The notes under the pieces: generated by a model | The model's database searches: none | The model's input: the letters and a program-made list of their open reading frames with translations, nothing else | Told to the model about the DNA's origin: nothing | Virus record (IMG/VR): IMGVR_UViG_3300002855_000208 | Location: 1 to 53,655 of that record | DNA length: 53,655 nt | Origin: a virus | Taxonomy: Duplodnaviria; Caudoviricetes | Direction: 5' to 3' (one strand) | Shown here: one piece after another, positions 21,751 to 52,743 of the stretch | Position numbering within the stretch: the stretch's first letter is position 1 | Layout: every line of letters starts with the position of its first letter | Translations under genes and position numbers: made by a program

Positions 21751-22153
21751 AGGGATACAGTAGAGTCAAATAGGGCAGACGCCCGGGCGACTCCGCTGTA
21801 TCCCTTATTACTTTGCGGACCCGGCCATGCGGTGGGAGAGTGTGCGGTCTCTCCTTAGGCGCCACCGATAAGGTGATCAGTCGCCGAGCGTGTGGAGATG
21901 GGAATGGGGTTCGAAGCCCCAAGTTTATCTTTTCTTCTCTGCGCCGGATCCATCCGTATTGGAGAAGAGGTGATAATCCTCTAAAATAAACCCCTCGACC
22001 GGCACGGTATGTATAGTGACGCATCATATCGGCGGGAGGTGGTCTATGAATGGAAGTCGAAGCGGTGAGCCTGCCGCAGAGAGCGGAAGCACATATTATA
22101 GGCAGCGGCTACAAACCGCAAAGCAGGATGGCTTAACGGCCATCCTTATTTTT
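21751..22153 (+). ncRNA. Candidate large structured non-coding RNA or late leader
   Basis: Many nested stems, no convincing ORF, ends in an intrinsic terminator. Confidence 0.5.
22125..22153 (+). terminator. Intrinsic terminator
   Basis: AGGATGGC-TTAACG-GCCATCCT followed by TATTTTT. Confidence 0.7.
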
Positions 22154-34390: not shown

Positions 34391-37300
34391 ATGACGGTTG
34401 AAATCGGAGAATTGAGAGCCCGCCTTACAGCGGAAGCATCGCAGATGAAACAGGAAGTAAAATCGGTAAAGGCTGAGTTTGTAGGCTTAGGCGAGCAGGG
34501 GAAGAAAACTGCCGGAGAACTCAAAGACGTTACCGACGCAGTTAATCAGGTTGCTAAGACTAAAGATCAAATCGCCAAGTTGACTGCTTCGTTGGATATT
34601 GTCAATGCCAAGATCGAGATTCAGCAGAAGAAACTTGCCGCCTTGAAAGGCTCTTACGAAAGTGCCTTTAATGACGAACGTAAGAACAAGCTGCAAGAAC
34701 GAATCGTGAACACGGAAGCCTCTTTGTTGCGACTCACCCAAACATCGGATACTACGGCGCAGAAGATTTGGAGTTTGGAAGATAGCCTTAATCAACTTGG
34801 GGCGAGTGGGAATAAGGCTGATTCCAGTATTGAGAAGTTGGATTCGGCGCTTAAAGATGCAAATAAGCAAACGGGAGACTTCAAGTCCCAACTTTCGTCC
34901 CTTAACACCTCGTTGTCTGACGTCGGTTTGAACTCGAAGCAAATCCAGAAGATCAACGACGAGATCAAGAAGGGTAATCCCCAAATTCTTGAACAGCAAT
35001 TGAAATCGATTCGCGAACAGCTTCAAGCGCTTGGGGTAGATTCAAAAGAAATCGCTAAAATTACAGCCGAGATTGATCGCGCTGATCCAAAGGCAAAAGA
35101 ACACGAAGCGACGATTAAACGCCTGGCAATTGCATATACGGCTCTATCGGCCGCAATTGCCGCGGTGATCGTAAAGTCGGTACAAGCCGCGGCATCTTTC
35201 GAACAGGACGCCGCGGACCTAGCAGCCGCGATGAATCTCCCGATCGAAAAGACGGACGAACTGAAGCAATCGATCGTCGATCTATCCTTGCATGCAAAGC
35301 AGACCATTCCCGAAATAACCGGGACAATGGAGCAGCTAAACATCAGTTTTGGAGTTGTGGGATCCGAGCTCGAGAATTTGACTAAACAAACCCTTGAATA
35401 CGCTAGAGCCAACAAAGCAGACGCAGCACCGTCCACGTCGTTACTAACCCGCGCTGCACAAGCTTTGGGCCTGCAATACAAGGATTTGCCGGATCTGATG
35501 GACAAACTGACGTACGCTTCTCACTCGTCCGGTATTAGCATTAACGAGTTGTCCACTCTCATCATCAGTTCCGGACCGGCATTTAAGCAGTTGGGACTTA
35601 ATATCGATCGACAGATCGGATTGTTCTCTCAACTATATAAAATGGGTTCCATCCCAAGCGAAGTAATTAGTCCGCTTAACGTCGCCTTGAACAACATGGC
35701 TCAGGATGGCGCCATGAACGCGGAAGAGGCATTCAACGCCCTGATTGATCAAATCAAAAACGCGCCGGATATCCTGACGGCAACAGCAATTGCGAGTGAT
35801 ACATTCGGGTCCCGGGCAGGGGCAAAACTGGCGGGCAACATTCGAGCAGGCCGCTTTGAAGTCAATGAATGGGAAAAGTCGATCAAGAATGCTGGGGGAA
35901 CAGTTGAGAGAGTCGCCGGGACGCAAATGGATACGTTGCAGACAGCCACGACAGAGTTTAAAGCGGCACTAACGGCCGCCGAGATCGAGGTTGGAGAGAA
36001 GTTTGTTCCGACAGTTAAGATTGCGACGGAAGCCGTAACGAATCTCTTGCTTGGATTTAAAGATATGAGCTCCGCGAATCAGAACGCGGTGATTACGTTC
36101 GCTACCGTTACGGCTGGAGTGGGTATGGTAGCGACGGCTATTTCTGGATTAATCACCGCTCTTAAACTTCTTCGCGTTGCTGGGATCGCAGCCGGGGCAG
36201 CGCTAGGATGGATAACAGGCATCGCATTAGCTATAGGGGCTGTTACTGCGGCGTTTGTTAAGTACAAGACAGAGGTTCAAGAGGCGGCAAAGGCGCAAGC
36301 GGAATTTAATGATCTTGTGAGCAAAACACCCTATGCCATGACAACAAGCGAGCTTCAAACGCAACAGCAAAATCTCAAGGAAGTTAATGAACTTTTGGAA
36401 AAGAGAAGTCGCCTAGAAAAAGAGATAGCGGAGAACCAAGTGTCGATACACGCGCTCTCTCAGGCACGCGGCGGAATGTCAACAGAGTTACAAGAGATGG
36501 TCAAGAAATCGGGCAAGCTGAACAAGGAGTTAACTGATCTCGATAAAAAGCTAAAGGTTTTTGGGATCGATACTCCCGAAAAAGCCCCGGATGTGGTGGC
36601 ACGCTTAAATAAGCAAGTCAACGAAGCTTTACCTGCGCTTGTACAACTTGAGCGCCAGAGCAAGCAGGAAGCTGTCTCCCATGCTGACAACACAAAACAG
36701 TTGATGGCGCTCGTTGATGAGTACAACAAGTTAAACGCAACAGCTAAACTCACCGAGGAACAAAAGCTACGACTCGAACAAGTCTTGAAGCGTCTGAAAG
36801 AAGAATACCCGGATTTACAGGTCGAACTGGACAAGGAGCATCGGGCGCACATCAAGAACAAAGACGCTCTCAACGAATACATTACGGCCGAGAAGAACAG
36901 GGTCATCGCAACCGGCGAAGCATCCATTAAGACACTGGAAATCGCGAAAACCGAGGCTGAAAAGCGGATCGAGATCGCGAAGCAAACTCTTAAAAAGATT
37001 GAAGACTTGGAAAACGGTAAGACGAAGTCGGAAGGTAGCGGATTTAAGTTTGACGCGCCCGGCTTGGACGGCATGCGCAAGATGAGCGATCAAATGATTA
37101 AACGCGCTACCGATGCGGCTAAAAAAGAGATCAAGGAACAGATTGACAGCGAAACCGTCGCTATCAATGACGCTACTCAACTCATCCGAGATTTGTCTTT
37201 GGACAACTGGCAAGATTACATCACGAAGTCGTTTTCGAGTGCTCCAGATAAGACAAAAGCCGCGAAGGACGGCAAAGCGAAAACACTCGAACAGATTCAA

Positions 37301-38728
37301 CAAGAAGAATACCAAGCTGCTCTGAAATACATCCAGTACAAAAAAGACCTGAACCAAATGAACGAAAAGCAAGAACTTGCCGCACTCGAGAGATTACAAC
37401 AGAAGTATAAAGAGATCGCCGATATCCGTATGGATCTCGAGGTAAAGGTTTACAAACTTAAAGATCAAATGCAGGCATCATCGTTCAAGGCTTCTCAAGA
37501 GTGGATCGAGCAGGAAGAACGCCGTATGACGTTGGCCGGCAAGACAGAAGAAGAAATCACGCAGATGAAGCTCGATGCATGGACCCGGGTACGCAATCGG
37601 TATCAGAAAGATTCCGAACTGTACAAACAGGCAGACACCCAGGTTTATCAAGCTAAACTGGCCCAACTCAAAGCAGCTACCAAAGCCGAGGAAGAGGCTG
37701 CTAAGGAGCGCGAAAAACTCTCGAAGGAAAACACCAAGAGAGCACTCGACGCGATCGAGAAGGCCAAGAAAGCGGAGCTCGCCGCGTTGGATGAACGTCG
37801 GAAAGCGATCGACGATTTTTACCGGGACGCTAACCGGGCGATCGACGATAAAGAGCGCTTGAAAGAGCGAAACGATCTCATTGCCGAAATGGAGAAGTAC
37901 CAATTTGCAACTTCCGAGAAGGGTCAGAAGCATTATCTCGAGTTGCAAGAGAAACTTCGGCAGATGGACATTGAGGATCAAAAGCTAGCGTTACAGGACG
38001 AGCGCGATCAGAAACTCGAAGCTTTGGACAAGGAGAAGAAAGACATCGAGTCCTGGTACGACGAGTTGAAAGACGCGACTAACGATCTGACTAAGGATCT
38101 CACTAAACTGTACAAGCTCGCTGATGACGAGAGGCTGAAATCGTTCCGGGAGACTAACGCGCTCATTATTCAGGAGATGCAGAACCTACAGCGGGAGATG
38201 TCGGGGGGCGTGCAGGTTAATGTCGGAACCTCCGGGAATTCCGGAAATTCAGGGAATGCCATTAATCCATCCGTAATCTCGCAGATGATGGCAAACAGCG
38301 CGGCGTGGTCCGGGGCTTCCGCAGCGGAAAAGCAACGCCTCGAACAAGACAACATGCGACTCGGAACGTCTCAAGGATGGATGCGCAAACCAGATGGTCA
38401 TTGGTATACACCAGATGGACAGCTCGTCTACCACACCGGGGGAATCGCGGGGGAAATGAACTTCCGATCCGCGGACAACCTTATGCCCGATGAGGTCCAA
38501 GCAGTATTGAAGCGCGGTGAGCCGGTACTGACACCGCAACAGGTCGGCAGTCTCGTGTCCGCCGGTGGAGGCGGTGCAAAAGTCACGATCGAGAAGATTG
38601 TAGGTGTTGAGATGCACGATGTTGTTATGGAGGACGAGATCGATTTGCGGGCATACGAACGGACCGGTGGAAACGAAGCCGTCGATATTCTGCGCAAGAA
38701 ATTATCTGGAGGTGGGGGCACTGGCTAA
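34391..38728 (+). CDS. Tape measure protein
   Basis: 1445 aa, helical, hydrophobic mid-segment. Confidence 0.92.
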   Translation: MTVEIGELRARLTAEASQMKQEVKSVKAEFVGLGEQGKKTAGELKDVTDAVNQVAKTKDQIAKLTASLDIVNAKIEIQQKKLAALKGSYESAFNDERKNKLQERIVNTEASLLRLTQTSDTTAQKIWSLEDSLNQLGASGNKADSSIEKLDSALKDANKQTGDFKSQLSSLNTSLSDVGLNSKQIQKINDEIKKGNPQILEQQLKSIREQLQALGVDSKEIAKITAEIDRADPKAKEHEATIKRLAIAYTALSAAIAAVIVKSVQAAASFEQDAADLAAAMNLPIEKTDELKQSIVDLSLHAKQTIPEITGTMEQLNISFGVVGSELENLTKQTLEYARANKADAAPSTSLLTRAAQALGLQYKDLPDLMDKLTYASHSSGISINELSTLIISSGPAFKQLGLNIDRQIGLFSQLYKMGSIPSEVISPLNVALNNMAQDGAMNAEEAFNALIDQIKNAPDILTATAIASDTFGSRAGAKLAGNIRAGRFEVNEWEKSIKNAGGTVERVAGTQMDTLQTATTEFKAALTAAEIEVGEKFVPTVKIATEAVTNLLLGFKDMSSANQNAVITFATVTAGVGMVATAISGLITALKLLRVAGIAAGAALGWITGIALAIGAVTAAFVKYKTEVQEAAKAQAEFNDLVSKTPYAMTTSELQTQQQNLKEVNELLEKRSRLEKEIAENQVSIHALSQARGGMSTELQEMVKKSGKLNKELTDLDKKLKVFGIDTPEKAPDVVARLNKQVNEALPALVQLERQSKQEAVSHADNTKQLMALVDEYNKLNATAKLTEEQKLRLEQVLKRLKEEYPDLQVELDKEHRAHIKNKDALNEYITAEKNRVIATGEASIKTLEIAKTEAEKRIEIAKQTLKKIEDLENGKTKSEGSGFKFDAPGLDGMRKMSDQMIKRATDAAKKEIKEQIDSETVAINDATQLIRDLSLDNWQDYITKSFSSAPDKTKAAKDGKAKTLEQIQQEEYQAALKYIQYKKDLNQMNEKQELAALERLQQKYKEIADIRMDLEVKVYKLKDQMQASSFKASQEWIEQEERRMTLAGKTEEEITQMKLDAWTRVRNRYQKDSELYKQADTQVYQAKLAQLKAATKAEEEAAKEREKLSKENTKRALDAIEKAKKAELAALDERRKAIDDFYRDANRAIDDKERLKERNDLIAEMEKYQFATSEKGQKHYLELQEKLRQMDIEDQKLALQDERDQKLEALDKEKKDIESWYDELKDATNDLTKDLTKLYKLADDERLKSFRETNALIIQEMQNLQREMSGGVQVNVGTSGNSGNSGNAINPSVISQMMANSAAWSGASAAEKQRLEQDNMRLGTSQGWMRKPDGHWYTPDGQLVYHTGGIAGEMNFRSADNLMPDEVQAVLKRGEPVLTPQQVGSLVSAGGGGAKVTIEKIVGVEMHDVVMEDEIDLRAYERTGGNEAVDILRKKLSGGGGTG

Positions 38729-49163: not shown

Positions 49164-50340
49164 AATTGAAGAATTTAAAGGAAGTAAAAAGGGAACTAAC
49201 CACAAGAACGCTTTTATTCCGGAGAGACTTCGACAGGTAAGAATAGCGCTTGGCTATTCGACCATAGACTTTTCAGAAGACATTGGTGTTACGCGTCAAG
49301 CTCTAAATCAGTTCGAAACCAACAGAATAACTCCAAGTTACGAAACGCTCTTAAAGATAGAAAAAACGACTAATTTCCCAGTAGATTATTTTTTCAAACC
49401 AATCTTGCCCGTAAATGATGGACCATTCTTGTTTAGGGCGAATCGCACTTCTTTAAAGAAAACAAAAGAGTTTTCGAGGTTTATTGTCCAGCAAATGAAG
49501 GAAAGTTACGATTTCTTTTCTGAATATCTTGACTTTACTCCTGTGAACGTGCCTTTACTTGAGTTTGATGTGAATAGTTCGCTTGATGAAATTGAGGATA
49601 TCGCAGTGGCTTTACGGAAGCACTGGGGTCTAGGATTAGGTCCAATAAGTCATGTATACAGGCTTCTTGAGAATAATGGGATTATTATTTCCCAACTTGA
49701 CAAGCGTTTGGATAAAATAGATGCATTTTCACAGTGGAAAGATGGTAGACCGTTTGTCTTGGTTGGTTCACAAGAATTTACTGCATGTCGTCTGAGGCTT
49801 AATGCAATGCATGAATTTGGACACATACTGCTTCATACTGATGCTGAATACGAAGAAAGAGCAAATAAAGATGCCGAATTTTACGATGTTCTTGAAAGTC
49901 AGGCATTCCGTTTAGCCGGAGCCTTCATGTTTCCAAGAGAGTCTTTTCTTGACGAATTGTTTTCGACGTCGCTGCCCCATCTGATTGAGCTTAAACAACG
50001 ATGGGGAGTGTCCTTGGCATTTATAGTTAGACGTTGCAAGGAGCTCGAGATCATTTCTGATTCTAAGTACGAGACCTTAATGAGGCAAATAAAAAAGTTT
50101 GGGAAAATGGAACCCTTGGACGACAAAATTGAGAAGGAGCAACCGCGCGCATTGAATCAAGCTGCAAATCTATTGATGGAACACGGTGTTAAAACTCGTC
50201 AAGAAATATTAAGCGGCCATAAGCTTCCTCGGACGCTCGCTGAATCAATAATCGGTGTCGAACCAGGATTTTTTTCGGAGCATATCCCAGAAGAAAAAAT
50301 TGTTGAATTCCGATCAAAATCGCAAAATAAAGCTAATTGA
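49156..50340 (+). CDS. XRE-HTH fused to ImmA/IrrE Zn metallopeptidase (RmrA-like)
   Basis: HTH; LRKHWGLG; DAFS; HEFGH; E..A..LAGAF. Confidence 0.88.
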   Translation: MSKIEEFKGSKKGTNHKNAFIPERLRQVRIALGYSTIDFSEDIGVTRQALNQFETNRITPSYETLLKIEKTTNFPVDYFFKPILPVNDGPFLFRANRTSLKKTKEFSRFIVQQMKESYDFFSEYLDFTPVNVPLLEFDVNSSLDEIEDIAVALRKHWGLGLGPISHVYRLLENNGIIISQLDKRLDKIDAFSQWKDGRPFVLVGSQEFTACRLRLNAMHEFGHILLHTDAEYEERANKDAEFYDVLESQAFRLAGAFMFPRESFLDELFSTSLPHLIELKQRWGVSLAFIVRRCKELEIISDSKYETLMRQIKKFGKMEPLDDKIEKEQPRALNQAANLLMEHGVKTRQEILSGHKLPRTLAESIIGVEPGFFSEHIPEEKIVEFRSKSQNKAN

Positions 50341-50370
50341 AAGCGGAAGGCGTAAGCCTCCGCTTTTTTT
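50341..50370. terminator. Terminator between convergent genes
   Basis: AAGCGGAAGGC-GTAA-GCCTCCGCTT followed by T run. Confidence 0.75.
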
Positions 50371-51232
50371 ATACAATGAAGCCTACAAACTCTGGACTCC
50401 GCAGCATCCCCTTACGCGTCCAATTCCGGAACCGCACCCGCGCGTTTATCCTCGGCTCTAAATAAACGAAATCCCGATCTTCTCTAGAAACTAGGCTACG
50501 AGCGACGCCATAGAACGCCTGCTTATGTTTCAACGGAACCAATGTCGGATGTTCGAGAAGTCCGACCGGTCGACCCCGATGAGACAGCAGCCATCCAAAT
50601 TGATTTTTCCGGTATCCGGCAATTTGCACGACATCATAAGTGTAGTTAATAATTTTGATCCAGCTTGGGGCGCGACGACCGACATACCGACTCTTTTGTA
50701 GCTTGGCTACAATTCCCTCGAGTTTCTTTTCCTTGATCGCTTCGAACAATGCCACGCCAGTTCCAGGAACACTCAACACCGGGGAGAAGAATTTATTTGC
50801 CGATAGAACTTGCTGCAGGATCCGCTTGCGCTCCGTTAGCGGTAGAGGCCGCAAGTCACGTCCATTGTACCGCAGGATATCAAACACATAGTAATGGACC
50901 GGCTGCCGAACCATAGCTTGGCGTATAGCGAGCGGTTTCCGCTTCAAAAATCGCTCCATGACCAATTCAAACTCAATGGCCCCATCTTCATTTTGGCATG
51001 CGACTTCGCCGTCAAGCACAACGTCGGAACTGTCATCGATCGGAACGTCATGCAGCTCGGGATACTGCAGCGTCACGTCGTTATTGTGGCGTGTAAAAAG
51101 ACGGACCTGTCCGGCCTCCATCGATAAGATGAGGCGGTGTCCGTCTATTTTGGGTTCAAATATATACCGATCGTCATCGAAAGGATTCTCACGCTTTTCC
51201 AGGAGCATAGGAGGGAGGAACATTTCGCACAC
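50369..51232 (-). CDS. ATP-dependent DNA ligase (LigD ligase-domain type)
   Basis: EPKIDG, LDGE, FDIL, EGIVAK, WIKI, G.LR.P.F. Confidence 0.92.
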   Translation of the reverse strand: MCEMFLPPMLLEKRENPFDDDRYIFEPKIDGHRLILSMEAGQVRLFTRHNNDVTLQYPELHDVPIDDSSDVVLDGEVACQNEDGAIEFELVMERFLKRKPLAIRQAMVRQPVHYYVFDILRYNGRDLRPLPLTERKRILQQVLSANKFFSPVLSVPGTGVALFEAIKEKKLEGIVAKLQKSRYVGRRAPSWIKIINYTYDVVQIAGYRKNQFGWLLSHRGRPVGLLEHPTLVPLKHKQAFYGVARSLVSREDRDFVYLEPRINARVRFRNWTRKGMLRSPEFVGFIV

Positions 51233-51305
51233 CGTCCGTATATCTAAGCTGATATACTGATTGTATCATTCGGGTATGCATGACGAAGCCGGTAAGTAAT
51301 GGGAG

Positions 51306-51479
51306 TCAATCAATGATCCGCAGGGTAAACTTGTCCTTATAATAGTACATCCCGTCGTCGAGCTTGATTGTGTCTTTTGTATGCAGCAAGATCTTCCCGC
51401 GGCCGATAAGCTCTTCCTCGTCGTAAATCTCGACGGTTTTTCCGTACATAAATGCATGGTTAATCAATTGGACATCCAT
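51306..51479 (-). CDS. Small beta-rich protein
   Basis: GGAGG RBS before MDVQL. Confidence 0.6.
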   Translation of the reverse strand: MDVQLINHAFMYGKTVEIYDEEELIGRGKILLHTKDTIKLDDGMYYYKDKFTLRIID

Positions 51480-51565
51480 GAAGATCCTCCAAATTGCCAA
51501 GCGTTTGGGAATATCATATTGTCAAAGTGCATCTATGTAAAGGCCAGCCATGCACGGCCAGCTCG

Positions 51566-51640
51566 TGGCGGATATCCGCGACCATCCCGGCAGTAGCCGG
51601 TAGGTTTCGGCCTCCTCCGCAGGAGGCCATCGTCAGGCGG
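51566..51640 (-). ncRNA. Type I hammerhead ribozyme
   Basis: CCGC-CUGACGA-U-GGCCUCCU(GCGG)AGGAGGCC-GAAACC...CCGGC(UACU)GCCGG...GGUC-GCGG; complete core and three stems. Confidence 0.85.
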
Positions 51641-51806
51641 GTGTGTATGCTTCCAGTGCCTCAAGTGCTTGTTTGATTCGATTGATTTTTTCTTCGCCTG
51701 AACGATCCGACTCGATGATCGCTTCGATCACGCCGACCGTGTAATACGTCGCGGCAGTCTGATCCTCTTTAACGTCTCTTTGGAGTCTTTCCAGTAAATC
51801 ATTCAT
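51633..51806 (-). CDS. 57-aa protein whose stop codon lies in the ribozyme core
   Basis: GGGAGG upstream of MNDLLE; TGA is part of CUGACGA. Confidence 0.6.
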   Translation of the reverse strand: MNDLLERLQRDVKEDQTAATYYTVGVIEAIIESDRSGEEKINRIKQALEALEAYTPA

Positions 51807-51855
51807 ATCCTCTTTCCCTCCCATCGGGGGGAGACCCGAAGGTCTCCAGTTATTA

Positions 51856-52089
51856 TTAAGCAAGTTTCCGAGCCTGTGACCTGATCCGGATCATTTCCCA
51901 CTCACTGACGTGCACCAAATTTGCACCGAGTCCGATAAGAACTTCGTTAAGCGATTGAATGCGTTCTTCTGTCGTACTGCCATACGTCGACAGCTTGTGA
52001 ACTGATCCCGGATATTCTTTCGTTGGGAGAATCTCGTAACATACGTCCCTGCTTTCCTTGGCGTCCCAAATATAAACTTCCTTAGCCAT
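51856..52089 (-). CDS. Hypothetical protein
   Basis: GGGAGG RBS before MAKEVY. Confidence 0.6.
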   Translation of the reverse strand: MAKEVYIWDAKESRDVCYEILPTKEYPGSVHKLSTYGSTTEERIQSLNEVLIGLGANLVHVSEWEMIRIRSQARKLA

Positions 52090-52118
52090 CCTCATTACCT
52101 CCCTGCCCAATGGGCTGC

Positions 52119-52202
52119 TTATTTTCTCCTTGCGTTCCTAATCAGTGCCGCCATCGTGATGACCAACGCCGCGATGCTGATGACCATTGTCGCCATTTGC
52201 AT
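52119..52202 (-). CDS. 27-aa hydrophobic peptide (type I toxin-like)
   Basis: GAAAGGAG RBS; MQMATMVISIAALVITMAALIRNARRK. Confidence 0.65.
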   Translation of the reverse strand: MQMATMVISIAALVITMAALIRNARRK

Positions 52203-52438: not shown

Positions 52439-52481
52439 TCTCCTTTCCGAAGGCGTGTCCTTAACCTTCTGATTTCATTAT

Positions 52482-52547
52482 ACAGCATTTTAAATGCTGT
52501 GTAAATAGGTGAATTATAAATATTGCAAAAGTATTTTTAATGCTGTA
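52482..52547. promoter_or_regulatory. Palindromic operators between divergent genes
   Basis: ACAGCATTT-T-AAATGCTGT at 52482-52500; partial second copy ending TAATGCTGTA near 52538-52547. Confidence 0.7.
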
Positions 52548-52575: not shown

Positions 52576-52743
52576 ATGGCGGGTCGTCCTAAGAAGGCTG
52601 AGGAAGATAAGAAAATTCGCGAGGCGATATATTTTGAACCGGCATTACTTGAATGGCTTAAGGGAGTAGCTGATGGGGAAGGATGCACGGTCAGTGTCAT
52701 CGTAAATCGAATGGTAAAGAAAGCAAAAGAGCAGGAGGGGTAA
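52576..52743 (+). CDS. 55-aa ribbon-helix-helix regulator, not in ORF track
   Basis: AAGGAGG RBS; MAGRPKK...REAIYFEPALLEWLKGVADGEGCTVSVIVNRMV. Confidence 0.75.
   Translation: MAGRPKKAEEDKKIREAIYFEPALLEWLKGVADGEGCTVSVIVNRMVKKAKEQEG

What the first reader, a model, noticed from the sequence alone, without database searches (positions are those of the whole stretch)
51541..51650. Hammerhead ribozyme fused to the stop codon of a small phage gene, with a possible conformational switch
Seen: the minus strand reads CCGC CUGACGA U GGCCUCCU-GCGG-AGGAGGCC GAAACC UA CCGGC-UACU-GCCGG GAU GGUC GCGG. This is the full hammerhead core (CUGANGA, GAAA, GUC) with stems I-III and one extra U before stem II. Predicted cleavage is between 51580 and 51579. 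The UGA stop of the 57-aa ORF is the UGA of the core. A downstream CCGC could pair with loop II (GCGG), or capture the stem I strand as the hairpin GCGGAUAUCCGC and switch cleavage off. Known: bacterial hammerheads occur in phage regions, and their function there is unresolved. Inference: cleavage may be coupled to translation termination and may separate the peptide operon from the downstream ligase genes.
Basis: partly seen in the sequence, partly recalled or inferred. Interest (0 to 1): 0.85.

Follow-up and report, generated by a model that had tools for sequence, protein, structure and literature searches.

The report
Pseudoknotted hammerhead ribozyme at prophage gene junction
The motif is very probably a real self-cutting hammerhead RNA of a kind common in phages; it sits at the end of a small gene and probably cuts the long message between two gene blocks, which is ordinary for phages although its purpose has never been tested.

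Summary
The minus strand 51640-51576 carries a complete type I hammerhead: core, three stems, one extra U after A9, and predicted cleavage between 51580 and 51579. The core UGA (51635-51633) is the stop codon of a 57-aa ORF. Rfam 15 finds no hammerhead here. The motif nevertheless belongs to a very large family. One pattern hit more than 117 viral and more than 120 bacterial stretches. Stems II and III and a pseudoknot between loop II and the 3' tail show strong compensatory variation. A covariance model built without the window scores this site 57.7 bits, E 1.7e-13; the next best site scores 10.6 bits. The core UGA is the stop codon in 20 of 83 clear cases. A downstream CCGC that can recapture the stem I strand occurs in 134 of 220 members against 9 of 220 in a control window. 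Function is inferred: the ribozyme processes the leftward transcript at a unit boundary, ahead of a hairpin and a promoter-like site. Self-cleavage, the switch and translation coupling are untested. The kind is known (Perreault 2011), and this scan noted the same family before on other DNA.

The parts
51633..51806 (-). 57-aa ORF of unknown function. Its UGA stop codon (51635-51633) is U4-G5-A6 of the ribozyme core.
   Evidence: No Pfam or PHROG match.
51637..51640 (-). Stem I 5' strand, CCGC (positions 2.4-2.1).
   Evidence: The pair columns are 97.7% paired in A1. This strand was not part of the search pattern, yet stem I of at least 3 bp is present in 106 of 111 distinct hits.
51629..51636 (-). 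Core strand CUGACGA (C3-A9) plus one inserted U before stem II.
   Evidence: The inserted nucleotide is present in 248 of 274 family copies found with a looser descriptor.
51609..51628 (-). Stem II with loop II (GCGG). By comparison with relatives L115 and L150 it is effectively 7 bp plus the loop U-GCGG-A.
   Evidence: Compensatory changes occur in 5 of 7 stem II pairs and in 6 of 7.
51581..51608 (-). G12-A13-A14 and stem III: A15.1-U16.1, two G-C pairs, an internal loop, and CCGGC/GCCGG with loop UACU.
   Evidence: Stem III pairs change on both sides in 4 of 6 pairs. For example, columns 46-75 read CG 55, GC 49, AU 7, UA 2 and unpaired 0 of 113.
51579..51580 (-). Predicted scissile bond: C17 (51580) | G1.1 (51579).
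   Evidence: This follows from hammerhead geometry, which is established knowledge, applied. It has not been tested experimentally.
51576..51579 (-). Stem I 3' strand, GCGG. It would be the first four nucleotides of the 3' cleavage product.
   Evidence: This strand is GCGG in 266 of 274 family copies.
51568..51575 (-). Linker AUAU plus CCGC. The CCGC is the pseudoknot partner of loop II, or alternatively the 3' arm of a hairpin that captures the stem I strand.
51544..51561 (-). Second hairpin, CUGGCCGU-GC-AUGGCUGG, preceded by CGAG. It belongs to a conserved module downstream of the ribozyme.
   Evidence: The arms differ but stay complementary in L044, L063, L134, L215, L226, L231 and L248.
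51513..51541 (-). Promoter-like site, TTTACA-17 nt-TATGAT. The TTTACATA box is conserved 37-39 nt after the cut in 22 of 227 family copies.
   Evidence: (10 of 12 consensus matches).
51306..51479 (-). Downstream 57-aa ORF (ATG at 51479, preceded by GGAGG). Function unknown.
   Evidence: No Pfam or PHROG match.
50369..51232 (-). ATP-dependent DNA ligase gene, the last gene of the leftward block.
   Evidence: Pfam PF01068, E 2.5e-29. PHROG 114.
52477..52505 (-). Promoter-like site, TTTACA-17-TATAAT. It would start the leftward small-gene unit that ends at the ribozyme.
   Evidence: 11 of 12 consensus matches. This is a consensus match only.

Best explanation
This is a type I hammerhead self-cleaving ribozyme in which stem I is open and stems II and III are capped. 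It belongs to a very large family carried by phages and prophages of Clostridia, Paenibacillaceae and cyanobacteria. The family has a near-invariant 4-5 bp stem I (CCGC/GCGG) and usually one extra U between A9 and stem II. Its tertiary contact is a short pseudoknot between loop II and the strand just 3' of stem I. In the window that pseudoknot pairs GCGG(A) with (U)CCGC.

The proposed mechanism is inferred from hammerhead chemistry and is not shown here. The leftward transcript of the small-gene unit reads through the 57-aa ORF. The ribozyme then folds and cuts after C17 (51580). Because the ribozyme is type I, nearly all of it stays on the 3' end of the upstream message, as two G+C-rich hairpins ending in a 2',3'-cyclic phosphate. 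The downstream RNA starts with 5'-OH-GCGG.

Stem I is only 4 bp, so it can dissociate. Its 3' strand can then be captured by the downstream CCGC as a hairpin at the very 5' end of the product. I infer that this makes the cut irreversible and shields the 5'-OH end, which in Bacillus subtilis is otherwise a substrate for RNase J1 (known for glmS). The design resembles the synthetic RiboJ insulator.

In the window the ribozyme marks the boundary between the small-gene unit and the unit made of the 57-aa ORF and the ligase, which has its own promoter-like site. The stop codon inside the core is best read as tight packing. Ribozymes of this family typically fill the whole intergenic space.
For: Anatomy.

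Covariation in A1 (113 sequences): 90.0% of cells are paired against 73.3% in shuffles. There are 363 double-change cells against 134.6. None of 500 shuffles reaches the observed value, and slid controls give 28.5-44.3%. In A3 (146 distinct bacterial copies): 93.9% against 74.8%, 447 against 140.2 double-change cells, 0 of 500.

Independent model: R2 scores the window site 57.7 bits, E 1.7e-13.

Pseudoknot: at least 4 Watson-Crick pairs in 135 of 220 true loop/tail pairs. Swapped pairs give a mean of 53.3 and a maximum of 68. Column pairs 32-86 and 33-85 change on both sides in 37 and 34 sequences. Stem II length correlates weakly with linker length (rho 0.21, p 0.018, n 128).

Recapture hairpin: CCGC lies 3-16 nt after the stem I strand in 134 of 220 copies, against 9 of 220 in a control window. 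Other 4-mers of the same composition reach at most 49 of 220. L031 and L129, whose stem I strand and following sequence are identical, have stem I GUGGG with CCCAC downstream. By my reading of the sequence, L046 has stem I GUGG with CCAC downstream. The two folds are nearly isoenergetic (mean difference -0.5 kcal/mol, n 232).

Packing: in 81 of 83 clear cases the upstream ORF stops within 40 nt of the core or at the core. The next start codon with a Shine-Dalgarno sequence lies 30-55 nt after the cut in 86 of 108 cases.

Boundary: hairpin plus a promoter-like site.

Literature: pseudoknots in all three hammerhead types and hammerheads flanking genes in prophages (PMC3088659, passages and section 8 read); RNase J1 attack on the 5'-OH product of glmS (PMC3328962, passage read); the RiboJ hairpin (PMC6206723, passages read).
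Against: No Rfam hammerhead model matches the site. There is no match at gathering threshold, none at E<=10 on 401 nt, and none on 96 nt. RF00163 scored 9 candidates in the record and matched none.

There is no experimental cleavage or expression evidence for this locus or, as far as I could see, for this subfamily.

Stem I is only 4 bp, and the minimum-free-energy fold of the window RNA prefers the alternative hairpin to stem I.

Loop II is nominally a 4-nt loop, so the pseudoknot requires the top U-A pair of stem II to open.

The core positions, the GG of stem II and the GCGG of stem I were fixed by my search pattern. Their invariance in A1 is therefore partly ascertainment.

Covariation evidence for the recapture hairpin is thin. 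Only 8 of 274 copies have a stem I strand other than GCGG, and 3 of those 8 have the matching downstream complement. In the window the CCGC is already explained by the pseudoknot. The protective role against RNase J is inference only.
Confidence: 0.8

Rival explanations
1. Translation-gated or folding-gated switch. The alternative hairpin (GCGG with the downstream CCGC) is an off-state. A ribosome terminating at the stop codon in or next to stem I strips away the stem I 5' strand. Cleavage would then happen only on untranslated, or only on translated, messages.
For: The two folds are nearly isoenergetic across 232 copies. The stop codon is the core UGA in 20 of 83 clear cases and abuts stem I in 22 of 83. 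The downstream complement is enriched, in 134 of 220 copies.
Against: Stop-codon position varies from +1 to -40 within the family, so no fixed register with the ribosome is kept. Tight packing alone predicts stop codons next to the ribozyme. The ribozyme is fully transcribed before the competing CCGC appears, and the pseudoknot, which the energy model does not count, favours the active fold. There are no data on kinetics or translation.
Confidence: 0.15
2. A conserved structured RNA or DNA element that no longer cleaves or never cleaved. It might be a 3'-end stabiliser or terminator-like double hairpin, or a decayed hammerhead kept only as structure.
For: Rfam models do not recognise it. It has an extra core nucleotide and a 4-bp stem I. 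The fold shows two strong hairpins directly after a stop codon. Some family copies carry C at core position 4.
Against: All catalytic-core positions are intact in the window. The unpaired core positions are kept even in family copies found by the model rather than by the pattern. The pseudoknot, which matters only for the active fold, covaries. From recall, an extra U at this position is tolerated in natural viroid-type hammerheads (De la Pena and Flores 2001; I saw only its title, in the reference list of PMC6155905).
Confidence: 0.04
3. A chance resemblance to the hammerhead consensus.
For: Short core motifs are frequent. Five of 111 distinct pattern hits in viral contigs were stemless chance hits.
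Against: R2 gives E 1.7e-13 against a next best of 10.6 bits. The same architecture appears in homologous prophage regions and in hundreds of other loci with compensatory changes.
Confidence: 0.01

Closest known systems
Type I hammerhead ribozymes with a stem I/stem II pseudoknot, clustered around genes in prophages (Perreault et al. 2011, PMC3088659)
   Same: The catalytic core and three-way junction are the same. A Watson-Crick pseudoknot replaces the loop-loop tertiary contact. The location is intergenic, next to small phage genes of unknown function. Related phages carry several copies per phage: six R1 hits within 3.3 kb in one viral record.
   Different: In the text I read, the paper does not mention three features of this family: the extra U after A9, the near-invariant CCGC/GCGG stem I, and the downstream complement that can recapture the stem I strand. 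The window has a single copy, not a cluster.
Rfam Hammerhead_1 (RF00163) and the other hammerhead-clan models
   Same: Same ribozyme class and, for RF00163, the same topology (type I).
   Different: The models do not score this family. RF00163 matched 0 of 16 sites that R1 finds in five viral records. No hammerhead reached gathering threshold in ten family-bearing loci. The best sub-threshold match was RF00008 at 19.5 bits against a cut-off of 48.5.
RiboJ and related synthetic ribozyme insulators (PMC6206723)
   Same: A hammerhead is followed by a hairpin. After cleavage the downstream message begins with a short hairpin-bearing leader in front of the ribosome binding site.
   Different: RiboJ is engineered from a type III satellite-RNA hammerhead, with a separate 23-nt hairpin added. 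Here the hairpin is natural and reuses the stem I strand itself. Its effect on message stability or translation is untested.
glmS ribozyme and RNase J1 (Collins et al. 2007, as summarised in PMC3328962)
   Same: Self-cleavage leaves a 5'-OH on the downstream mRNA in a Firmicute.
   Different: In glmS the 5'-OH end marks the message for RNase J1 decay. Here I propose the opposite outcome, because the new 5' end can fold into a hairpin. This is inference only.
Natural hammerheads with an extra nucleotide between A9 and G10.1 (De la Pena and Flores 2001, J Biol Chem 276:34586)
   Same: One inserted nucleotide at the same place in the core.
   Different: Those are viroid and satellite RNAs. I saw only the title, in the reference list of PMC6155905.

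Membership tests
Hammerhead ribozyme | Conserved core: C3 U4 G5 A6 N7 G8 A9, G12 A13 A14, the A15.1-U16.1 pair, and H17 before the cut. | tested here: met
   all positions are present (N7 = C, H17 = C). One U is inserted between A9 and G10.1. The same insertion occurs in 248 of 274 family copies.
Hammerhead ribozyme | Three helices around the core, supported by compensatory changes. | tested here: met
   90.0% and 93.9% of cells are paired, 363 and 447 cells change on both sides, 0 of 500 shuffles reach these values, and slid controls give 28-44%. Stem I hardly varies, so it is supported mainly by conservation of a strand that was not in the first search pattern.
Hammerhead ribozyme, type I | Stem I is open; stems II and III are closed by loops. 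| tested here: met
Extended (natural) hammerhead | A tertiary contact between stem I and stem II elements. Here it is a pseudoknot between loop II and the 3' tail. | tested here: met
   (matched 135 of 220 against a swapped mean of 53.3). In the window the pseudoknot is GCGG:CCGC, or 5 bp if the top U-A pair of stem II opens, as in relatives L115 and L150.
Rfam Hammerhead_1 (RF00163) | Covariance-model score of at least the gathering score, 34 bits. | tested here: not met
   no match even at E<=10. The same holds for other family members, so the failure is a property of the model for this family.
Hammerhead ribozyme | Site-specific, divalent-ion-assisted self-cleavage that gives a 2',3'-cyclic phosphate and a 5'-OH. 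| not testable with these tools
   This needs in vitro transcription or end-specific RNA sequencing.
Prophage gene-flanking hammerhead arrays (Perreault 2011) | Several ribozymes flanking single genes or short gene blocks. | tested here: not met
   Only one copy exists in the 53.7-kb provirus. Arrays do occur in other members: six R1 hits in L033 and six in G001.

The most novel reading that the evidence does not exclude
The family is a natural 'cut-and-cap' insulator. It would be a bistable type I hammerhead in which the 4-5 nt stem I strand is handed over, after cleavage, to a conserved downstream complement. Every downstream phage message would then begin with a 5'-OH hairpin that resists RNase J. 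The upstream message would keep the ribozyme body as a 3' stabiliser. Placing the stop codon in or against stem I would let ribosome traffic tune how much is cut. This would give bacterial and phage hammerheads a concrete, testable function after 15 years without one.
Probability: 0.3. Interest if true: 0.6.

Novelty: new member of a known kind. Interest (0 to 1): 0.4.

Why it matters
Hammerheads next to phage genes have been known since 2010-2011. The reviews I read still call their role open (PMC6155905, PMC6765202). This locus adds one more copy, so on its own it is ordinary.

Three family-level regularities came out of checking it, and each turns a vague idea ("processing of polycistronic messages") into a specific experiment on message ends and half-lives. 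The first is ribozymes that fill the whole space between a stop codon and the next ribosome binding site. The second is a stop codon inside the catalytic core in about a quarter of clear cases. The third is a conserved complement that can recapture the stem I strand.

There is also a practical point. The current Rfam hammerhead models miss this very abundant family completely, so annotation pipelines that rely on them under-count phage ribozymes.

Tried and rejected
Rfam. cmscan on the whole window at gathering threshold, and on 401 nt and 96 nt at E<=10, gave no hammerhead. RF00163 on the record gave none. I do not take this as evidence against the motif, because the same models miss every family member tested.

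Homologues through neighbouring proteins. The 76-aa reading of the upstream ORF found no relative in viral contigs. The ligase found 13 loci, and 2 of them carried the motif by my first regex. L009 was added later by the pattern.

blastn of 50300-52200 against the phage collection gave no match.

Expression. No RNA holder was listed for 51200-52200.

Chance hits. L018, L055, L085, L092 and L096 matched the pattern but have no stems. I dropped them before building A1. In genome contigs, L144, L152 and L182 look like the same kind of coding-region chance hit. L144, L152, L182, L141 and L178, and the close relatives L138, L150 and L180, were left out of the sources for A3.

Covariation test of the recapture hairpin. 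Only 8 of 274 copies have a stem I strand other than GCGG, and 3 of those 8 have the matching complement. That is too few to decide.

[quoted passage not shown] I rejected it as the closest relative.

The idea that the downstream GCGG-loop-CCGC hairpin is the true, closed stem I (type II or III topology) is rejected. The core strand CUGANGA does not follow it.

A sigma-54 reading of the downstream box was rejected on spacing. The TTTACATA box as a plain sigma-A promoter is uncertain. In some relatives the -10-like hexamer overlaps the ribosome binding site.

Supplementary files of Perreault 2011 were not available. They may already contain this family and the extra U.

Full report
**What is in the sequence.** Read on the minus strand, positions 51640-51576 spell a complete hammerhead.
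- Stem I 5' strand: CCGC (51640-51637).
- Core strand: CUGACGA (51636-51630), followed by one extra U (51629).
- Stem II: GGCCUCCU/AGGAGGCC, with loop GCGG (51620-51617).
- GAAA (51608-51605).
- Stem III: ACC/GGU, extended past a small internal loop by CCGGC-UACU-GCCGG.
- U16.1 and C17 (51581, 51580), then the stem I 3' strand GCGG (51579-51576).

The ORF that the ORF listing ends at 51633 (57 aa from the ATG at 51806) uses the UGA at 51635-51633, which is U4-G5-A6 of the core. Downstream, AUAU-CCGC (51575-51568) can pair with loop II or with the GCGG of stem I. The minimum-free-energy fold chooses the second option (-36.9 kcal/mol, z -3.15).

**Rfam says no, and why that does not count.** No hammerhead model matches the site.
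- The whole window at gathering threshold gave only an epsC RNA elsewhere.
- Searches at E<=10 on 401 nt and on 96 nt gave no hammerhead.
- RF00163 run on the record scored 9 candidates and matched none.

The same models also fail on every relative I tested. No hammerhead reached gathering threshold in ten family-bearing loci. None appeared at E<=10 over a 2.3-kb stretch holding four copies. RF00163 matched 0 of the 16 sites that my model finds in five viral records. The best match anywhere was a type III model at 19.5 bits, against a cut-off of 48.5, on one canonical copy. The negative result is a gap in the models.

**Relatives.** The window is a complete provirus record. It has a serine integrase at the left end, structural and lysis genes on the plus strand, and an accessory block at the right end. 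The ligase gene below the motif retrieved 13 viral loci. A simple descriptor found the same architecture in L003 and L013, with different stem II and stem III sequences.

The hosts were mostly Clostridia, Paenibacillus, Cohnella and filamentous cyanobacteria. Among 111 distinct viral hits, 106 have a stem I of at least 3 bp, although that upstream strand was not in the pattern. Five hits are stemless chance matches, and I dropped them.

**Covariation.** On 113 distinct viral copies (A1):
- 90.0% of cells form pairs, against 73.3% in shuffles.
- 363 cells change on both sides, against 134.6.
- None of 500 shuffles reaches the observed values.
- Sliding the partner by 1-3 columns gives 28.5-44.3%.

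One stem III pair reads CG 55, GC 49, AU 7 and UA 2, with none unpaired. On 146 distinct bacterial-genome copies (A3) the figures are 93.9% against 74.8%, and 447 against 140.2, again 0 of 500. A3 was fitted to the model's structure, which favours pairing; A1 was a plain MAFFT alignment.

A model built from A3 did not include the window. Its three closest relatives in the bacterial-genome set (L138, L150, L180) were also left out. That model scores the site 57.7 bits, E 1.7e-13, and nothing else in the window exceeds 10.6 bits. The provirus therefore carries one copy. Other members carry arrays, for example six hits in 3.3 kb in one record.

A caveat applies. The core letters, the first GG of stem II and GCGG were fixed by my pattern, so their invariance in A1 is partly ascertainment. 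The extra copies found by the model rather than the pattern keep the core. They also show that 26 of 274 copies lack the extra U.

**The tertiary contact.** Loop II and the strand 2-5 nt after stem I are complementary, and they change together: UGGC with GCCA, UGGU with ACCA, GGGA with UCCC, GACU with AGUC, and GCGG with CCGC. At least four Watson-Crick pairs are possible in 135 of 220 true loop/tail pairs. Swapped pairs give a mean of 53.3 and a maximum of 68. Two pseudoknot columns change on both sides in 37 and 34 of 113 sequences. Longer stems II go with slightly longer linkers (rho 0.21, p 0.018, n 128).

This is the kind of pseudoknot that Perreault et al. reported for all three hammerhead types and showed to be needed for fast cleavage (PMC3088659; passages and section 8 read). 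In the window the nominal 4-nt loop cannot pair fully. Relatives L115 and L150 have a 7-bp stem with loop AGCGGA. The window's top U-A pair therefore probably opens, giving GCGGA:UCCGC.

**The alternative hairpin.** A CCGC lies 3-16 nt after the stem I strand in 134 of 220 copies. In an equally sized window further downstream the count is 9 of 220. Other 4-mers of the same composition reach at most 49 of 220. In most copies this CCGC is separate from the pseudoknot partner, which then sits in the hairpin loop. In cyanobacterial copies the hairpin is longer and its inner pairs vary. Without counting the pseudoknot, the ribozyme fold and the hairpin fold are nearly isoenergetic (mean difference -0.5 kcal/mol over 232 copies).

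Direct covariation is thin, because stem I is almost invariant. Only 8 of 274 copies differ, and 3 of those 8 have the matching complement. The clearest case is GUGGG with CCCAC. In the window the single CCGC serves both roles, so here the hairpin could be a by-product of the pseudoknot.

**Position relative to genes.** Of 210 copies examined, 83 have one clearly open upstream frame. In 20 of these the ORF ends at the core UGA, as in the window. In 22 the stop codon abuts stem I. In 81 the stop lies within 40 nt of the core or at it. The next start codon with a Shine-Dalgarno sequence is 30-55 nt after the cut in 86 of the 108 cases where one was found.

The ribozyme thus usually fills the whole intergenic space. 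The stop-codon fusion is recurrent but not obligatory. In L003 and L013 the stop lies upstream.

**Surroundings in the window.** Three elements follow the ribozyme:
- CGAG.
- A second hairpin (51561-51544), whose arms differ but stay complementary in relatives.
- A TTTACATA box that the consensus scan reads as TTTACA-17-TATGAT (51541-51513).

After these come a 57-aa ORF (51479-51306) and an ATP-dependent DNA ligase. The same layout, with the box 37-39 nt after the cut, occurs in 22 of 227 family copies, in front of unrelated genes. In L226 it stands directly in front of a ligase. A second promoter-like site at 52505-52477 would drive the small-gene unit that ends at the ribozyme. The ribozyme thus sits at a boundary between two leftward units.

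**Mechanism.** The following steps are inferred, not shown.
- The ribozyme cuts after C17.
- Because it is type I, its body stays on the upstream message as a structured 3' end with a cyclic phosphate.
- The downstream RNA begins with 5'-OH-GCGG and can fold that strand into a 5'-terminal hairpin.
- In Bacillus subtilis the 5'-OH product of the glmS ribozyme is degraded by RNase J1 (PMC3328962; passage read). A terminal hairpin would plausibly counter this.
- The synthetic RiboJ insulator uses the same ribozyme-plus-hairpin logic (PMC6206723; passages read).

The variable distance between stop codon and ribozyme argues against a fixed ribosome register.

**Comparison and novelty.** Reviews still call the function of bacterial and phage hammerheads open (PMC6155905 and PMC6765202; passages read). 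This copy is a new member of a known kind. I did not find three family features in the papers I read: the universal extra U, the invariant stem I, and the recapture complement. The supplements of the 2011 paper were closed, so I cannot claim these features are unpublished. Earlier notes of this scan already describe this family on other DNA (e1-5344182) and a stop-codon link at other phage hammerheads (e1-3481804).

Noticed in passing
window 21786-21920 (+): An epsC (EAR) RNA match of 48.7 bits, above the gathering score of 42. It lies inside the provirus, between the early region and the late structural operon. This RNA class is known from exopolysaccharide operons of Bacillales, where, from recall, it promotes antitermination. 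A phage copy in front of late genes would be worth a look.
   Followed up: no
window 51513-51567 (-); also L044, L063, L126, L134, L138, L155, L184, L186, L205, L215, L226, L231, L248: A conserved module follows the ribozyme: CGAG, a G+C-rich hairpin with varying but complementary arms, CC, then a TTTACATA box 37-39 nt after the cut, with a second conserved CTTTGAnAA stretch. It is promoter-like in the window (TTTACA-17-TATGAT). In some relatives the -10-like hexamer overlaps the ribosome binding site, so its nature (terminator plus promoter, operator, or RNA element) is unresolved. It precedes unrelated genes.
   Followed up: partly
L059 3805-3890 (-): A twister-P1-like match (45.1 bits, E 6e-08, below the gathering score of 67.2) lies in the same 4-kb stretch as six hammerhead copies. 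This fits the known clustering of different self-cleaving ribozymes.
   Followed up: no
L115 10509-10592 (+): A c-di-GMP-I riboswitch (80 bits) lies on the viral contig whose hammerhead and downstream module are closest to the window's among the viral loci.
   Followed up: no
L033 857 and 1781; L065 2313; L068 8733: These family copies have C instead of U at core position 4 (CCGAUGA) but otherwise intact stems. They may be weakened or inactive variants, or a tolerated substitution.
   Followed up: no
L033 (six model hits in 3.7 kb); L140 (ten model hits in 8 kb); G001 34414-37742: Dense arrays of this hammerhead family, one per small gene, contrast with the single copy in the window.
   Followed up: partly
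window 52477-52505 (-) and 52576-52743 (+): A strong promoter-like site (TTTACA-17-TATAAT) faces left towards the small ORFs that end at the ribozyme. I found no Pfam or PHROG match for the small ORFs.
   Followed up: partly
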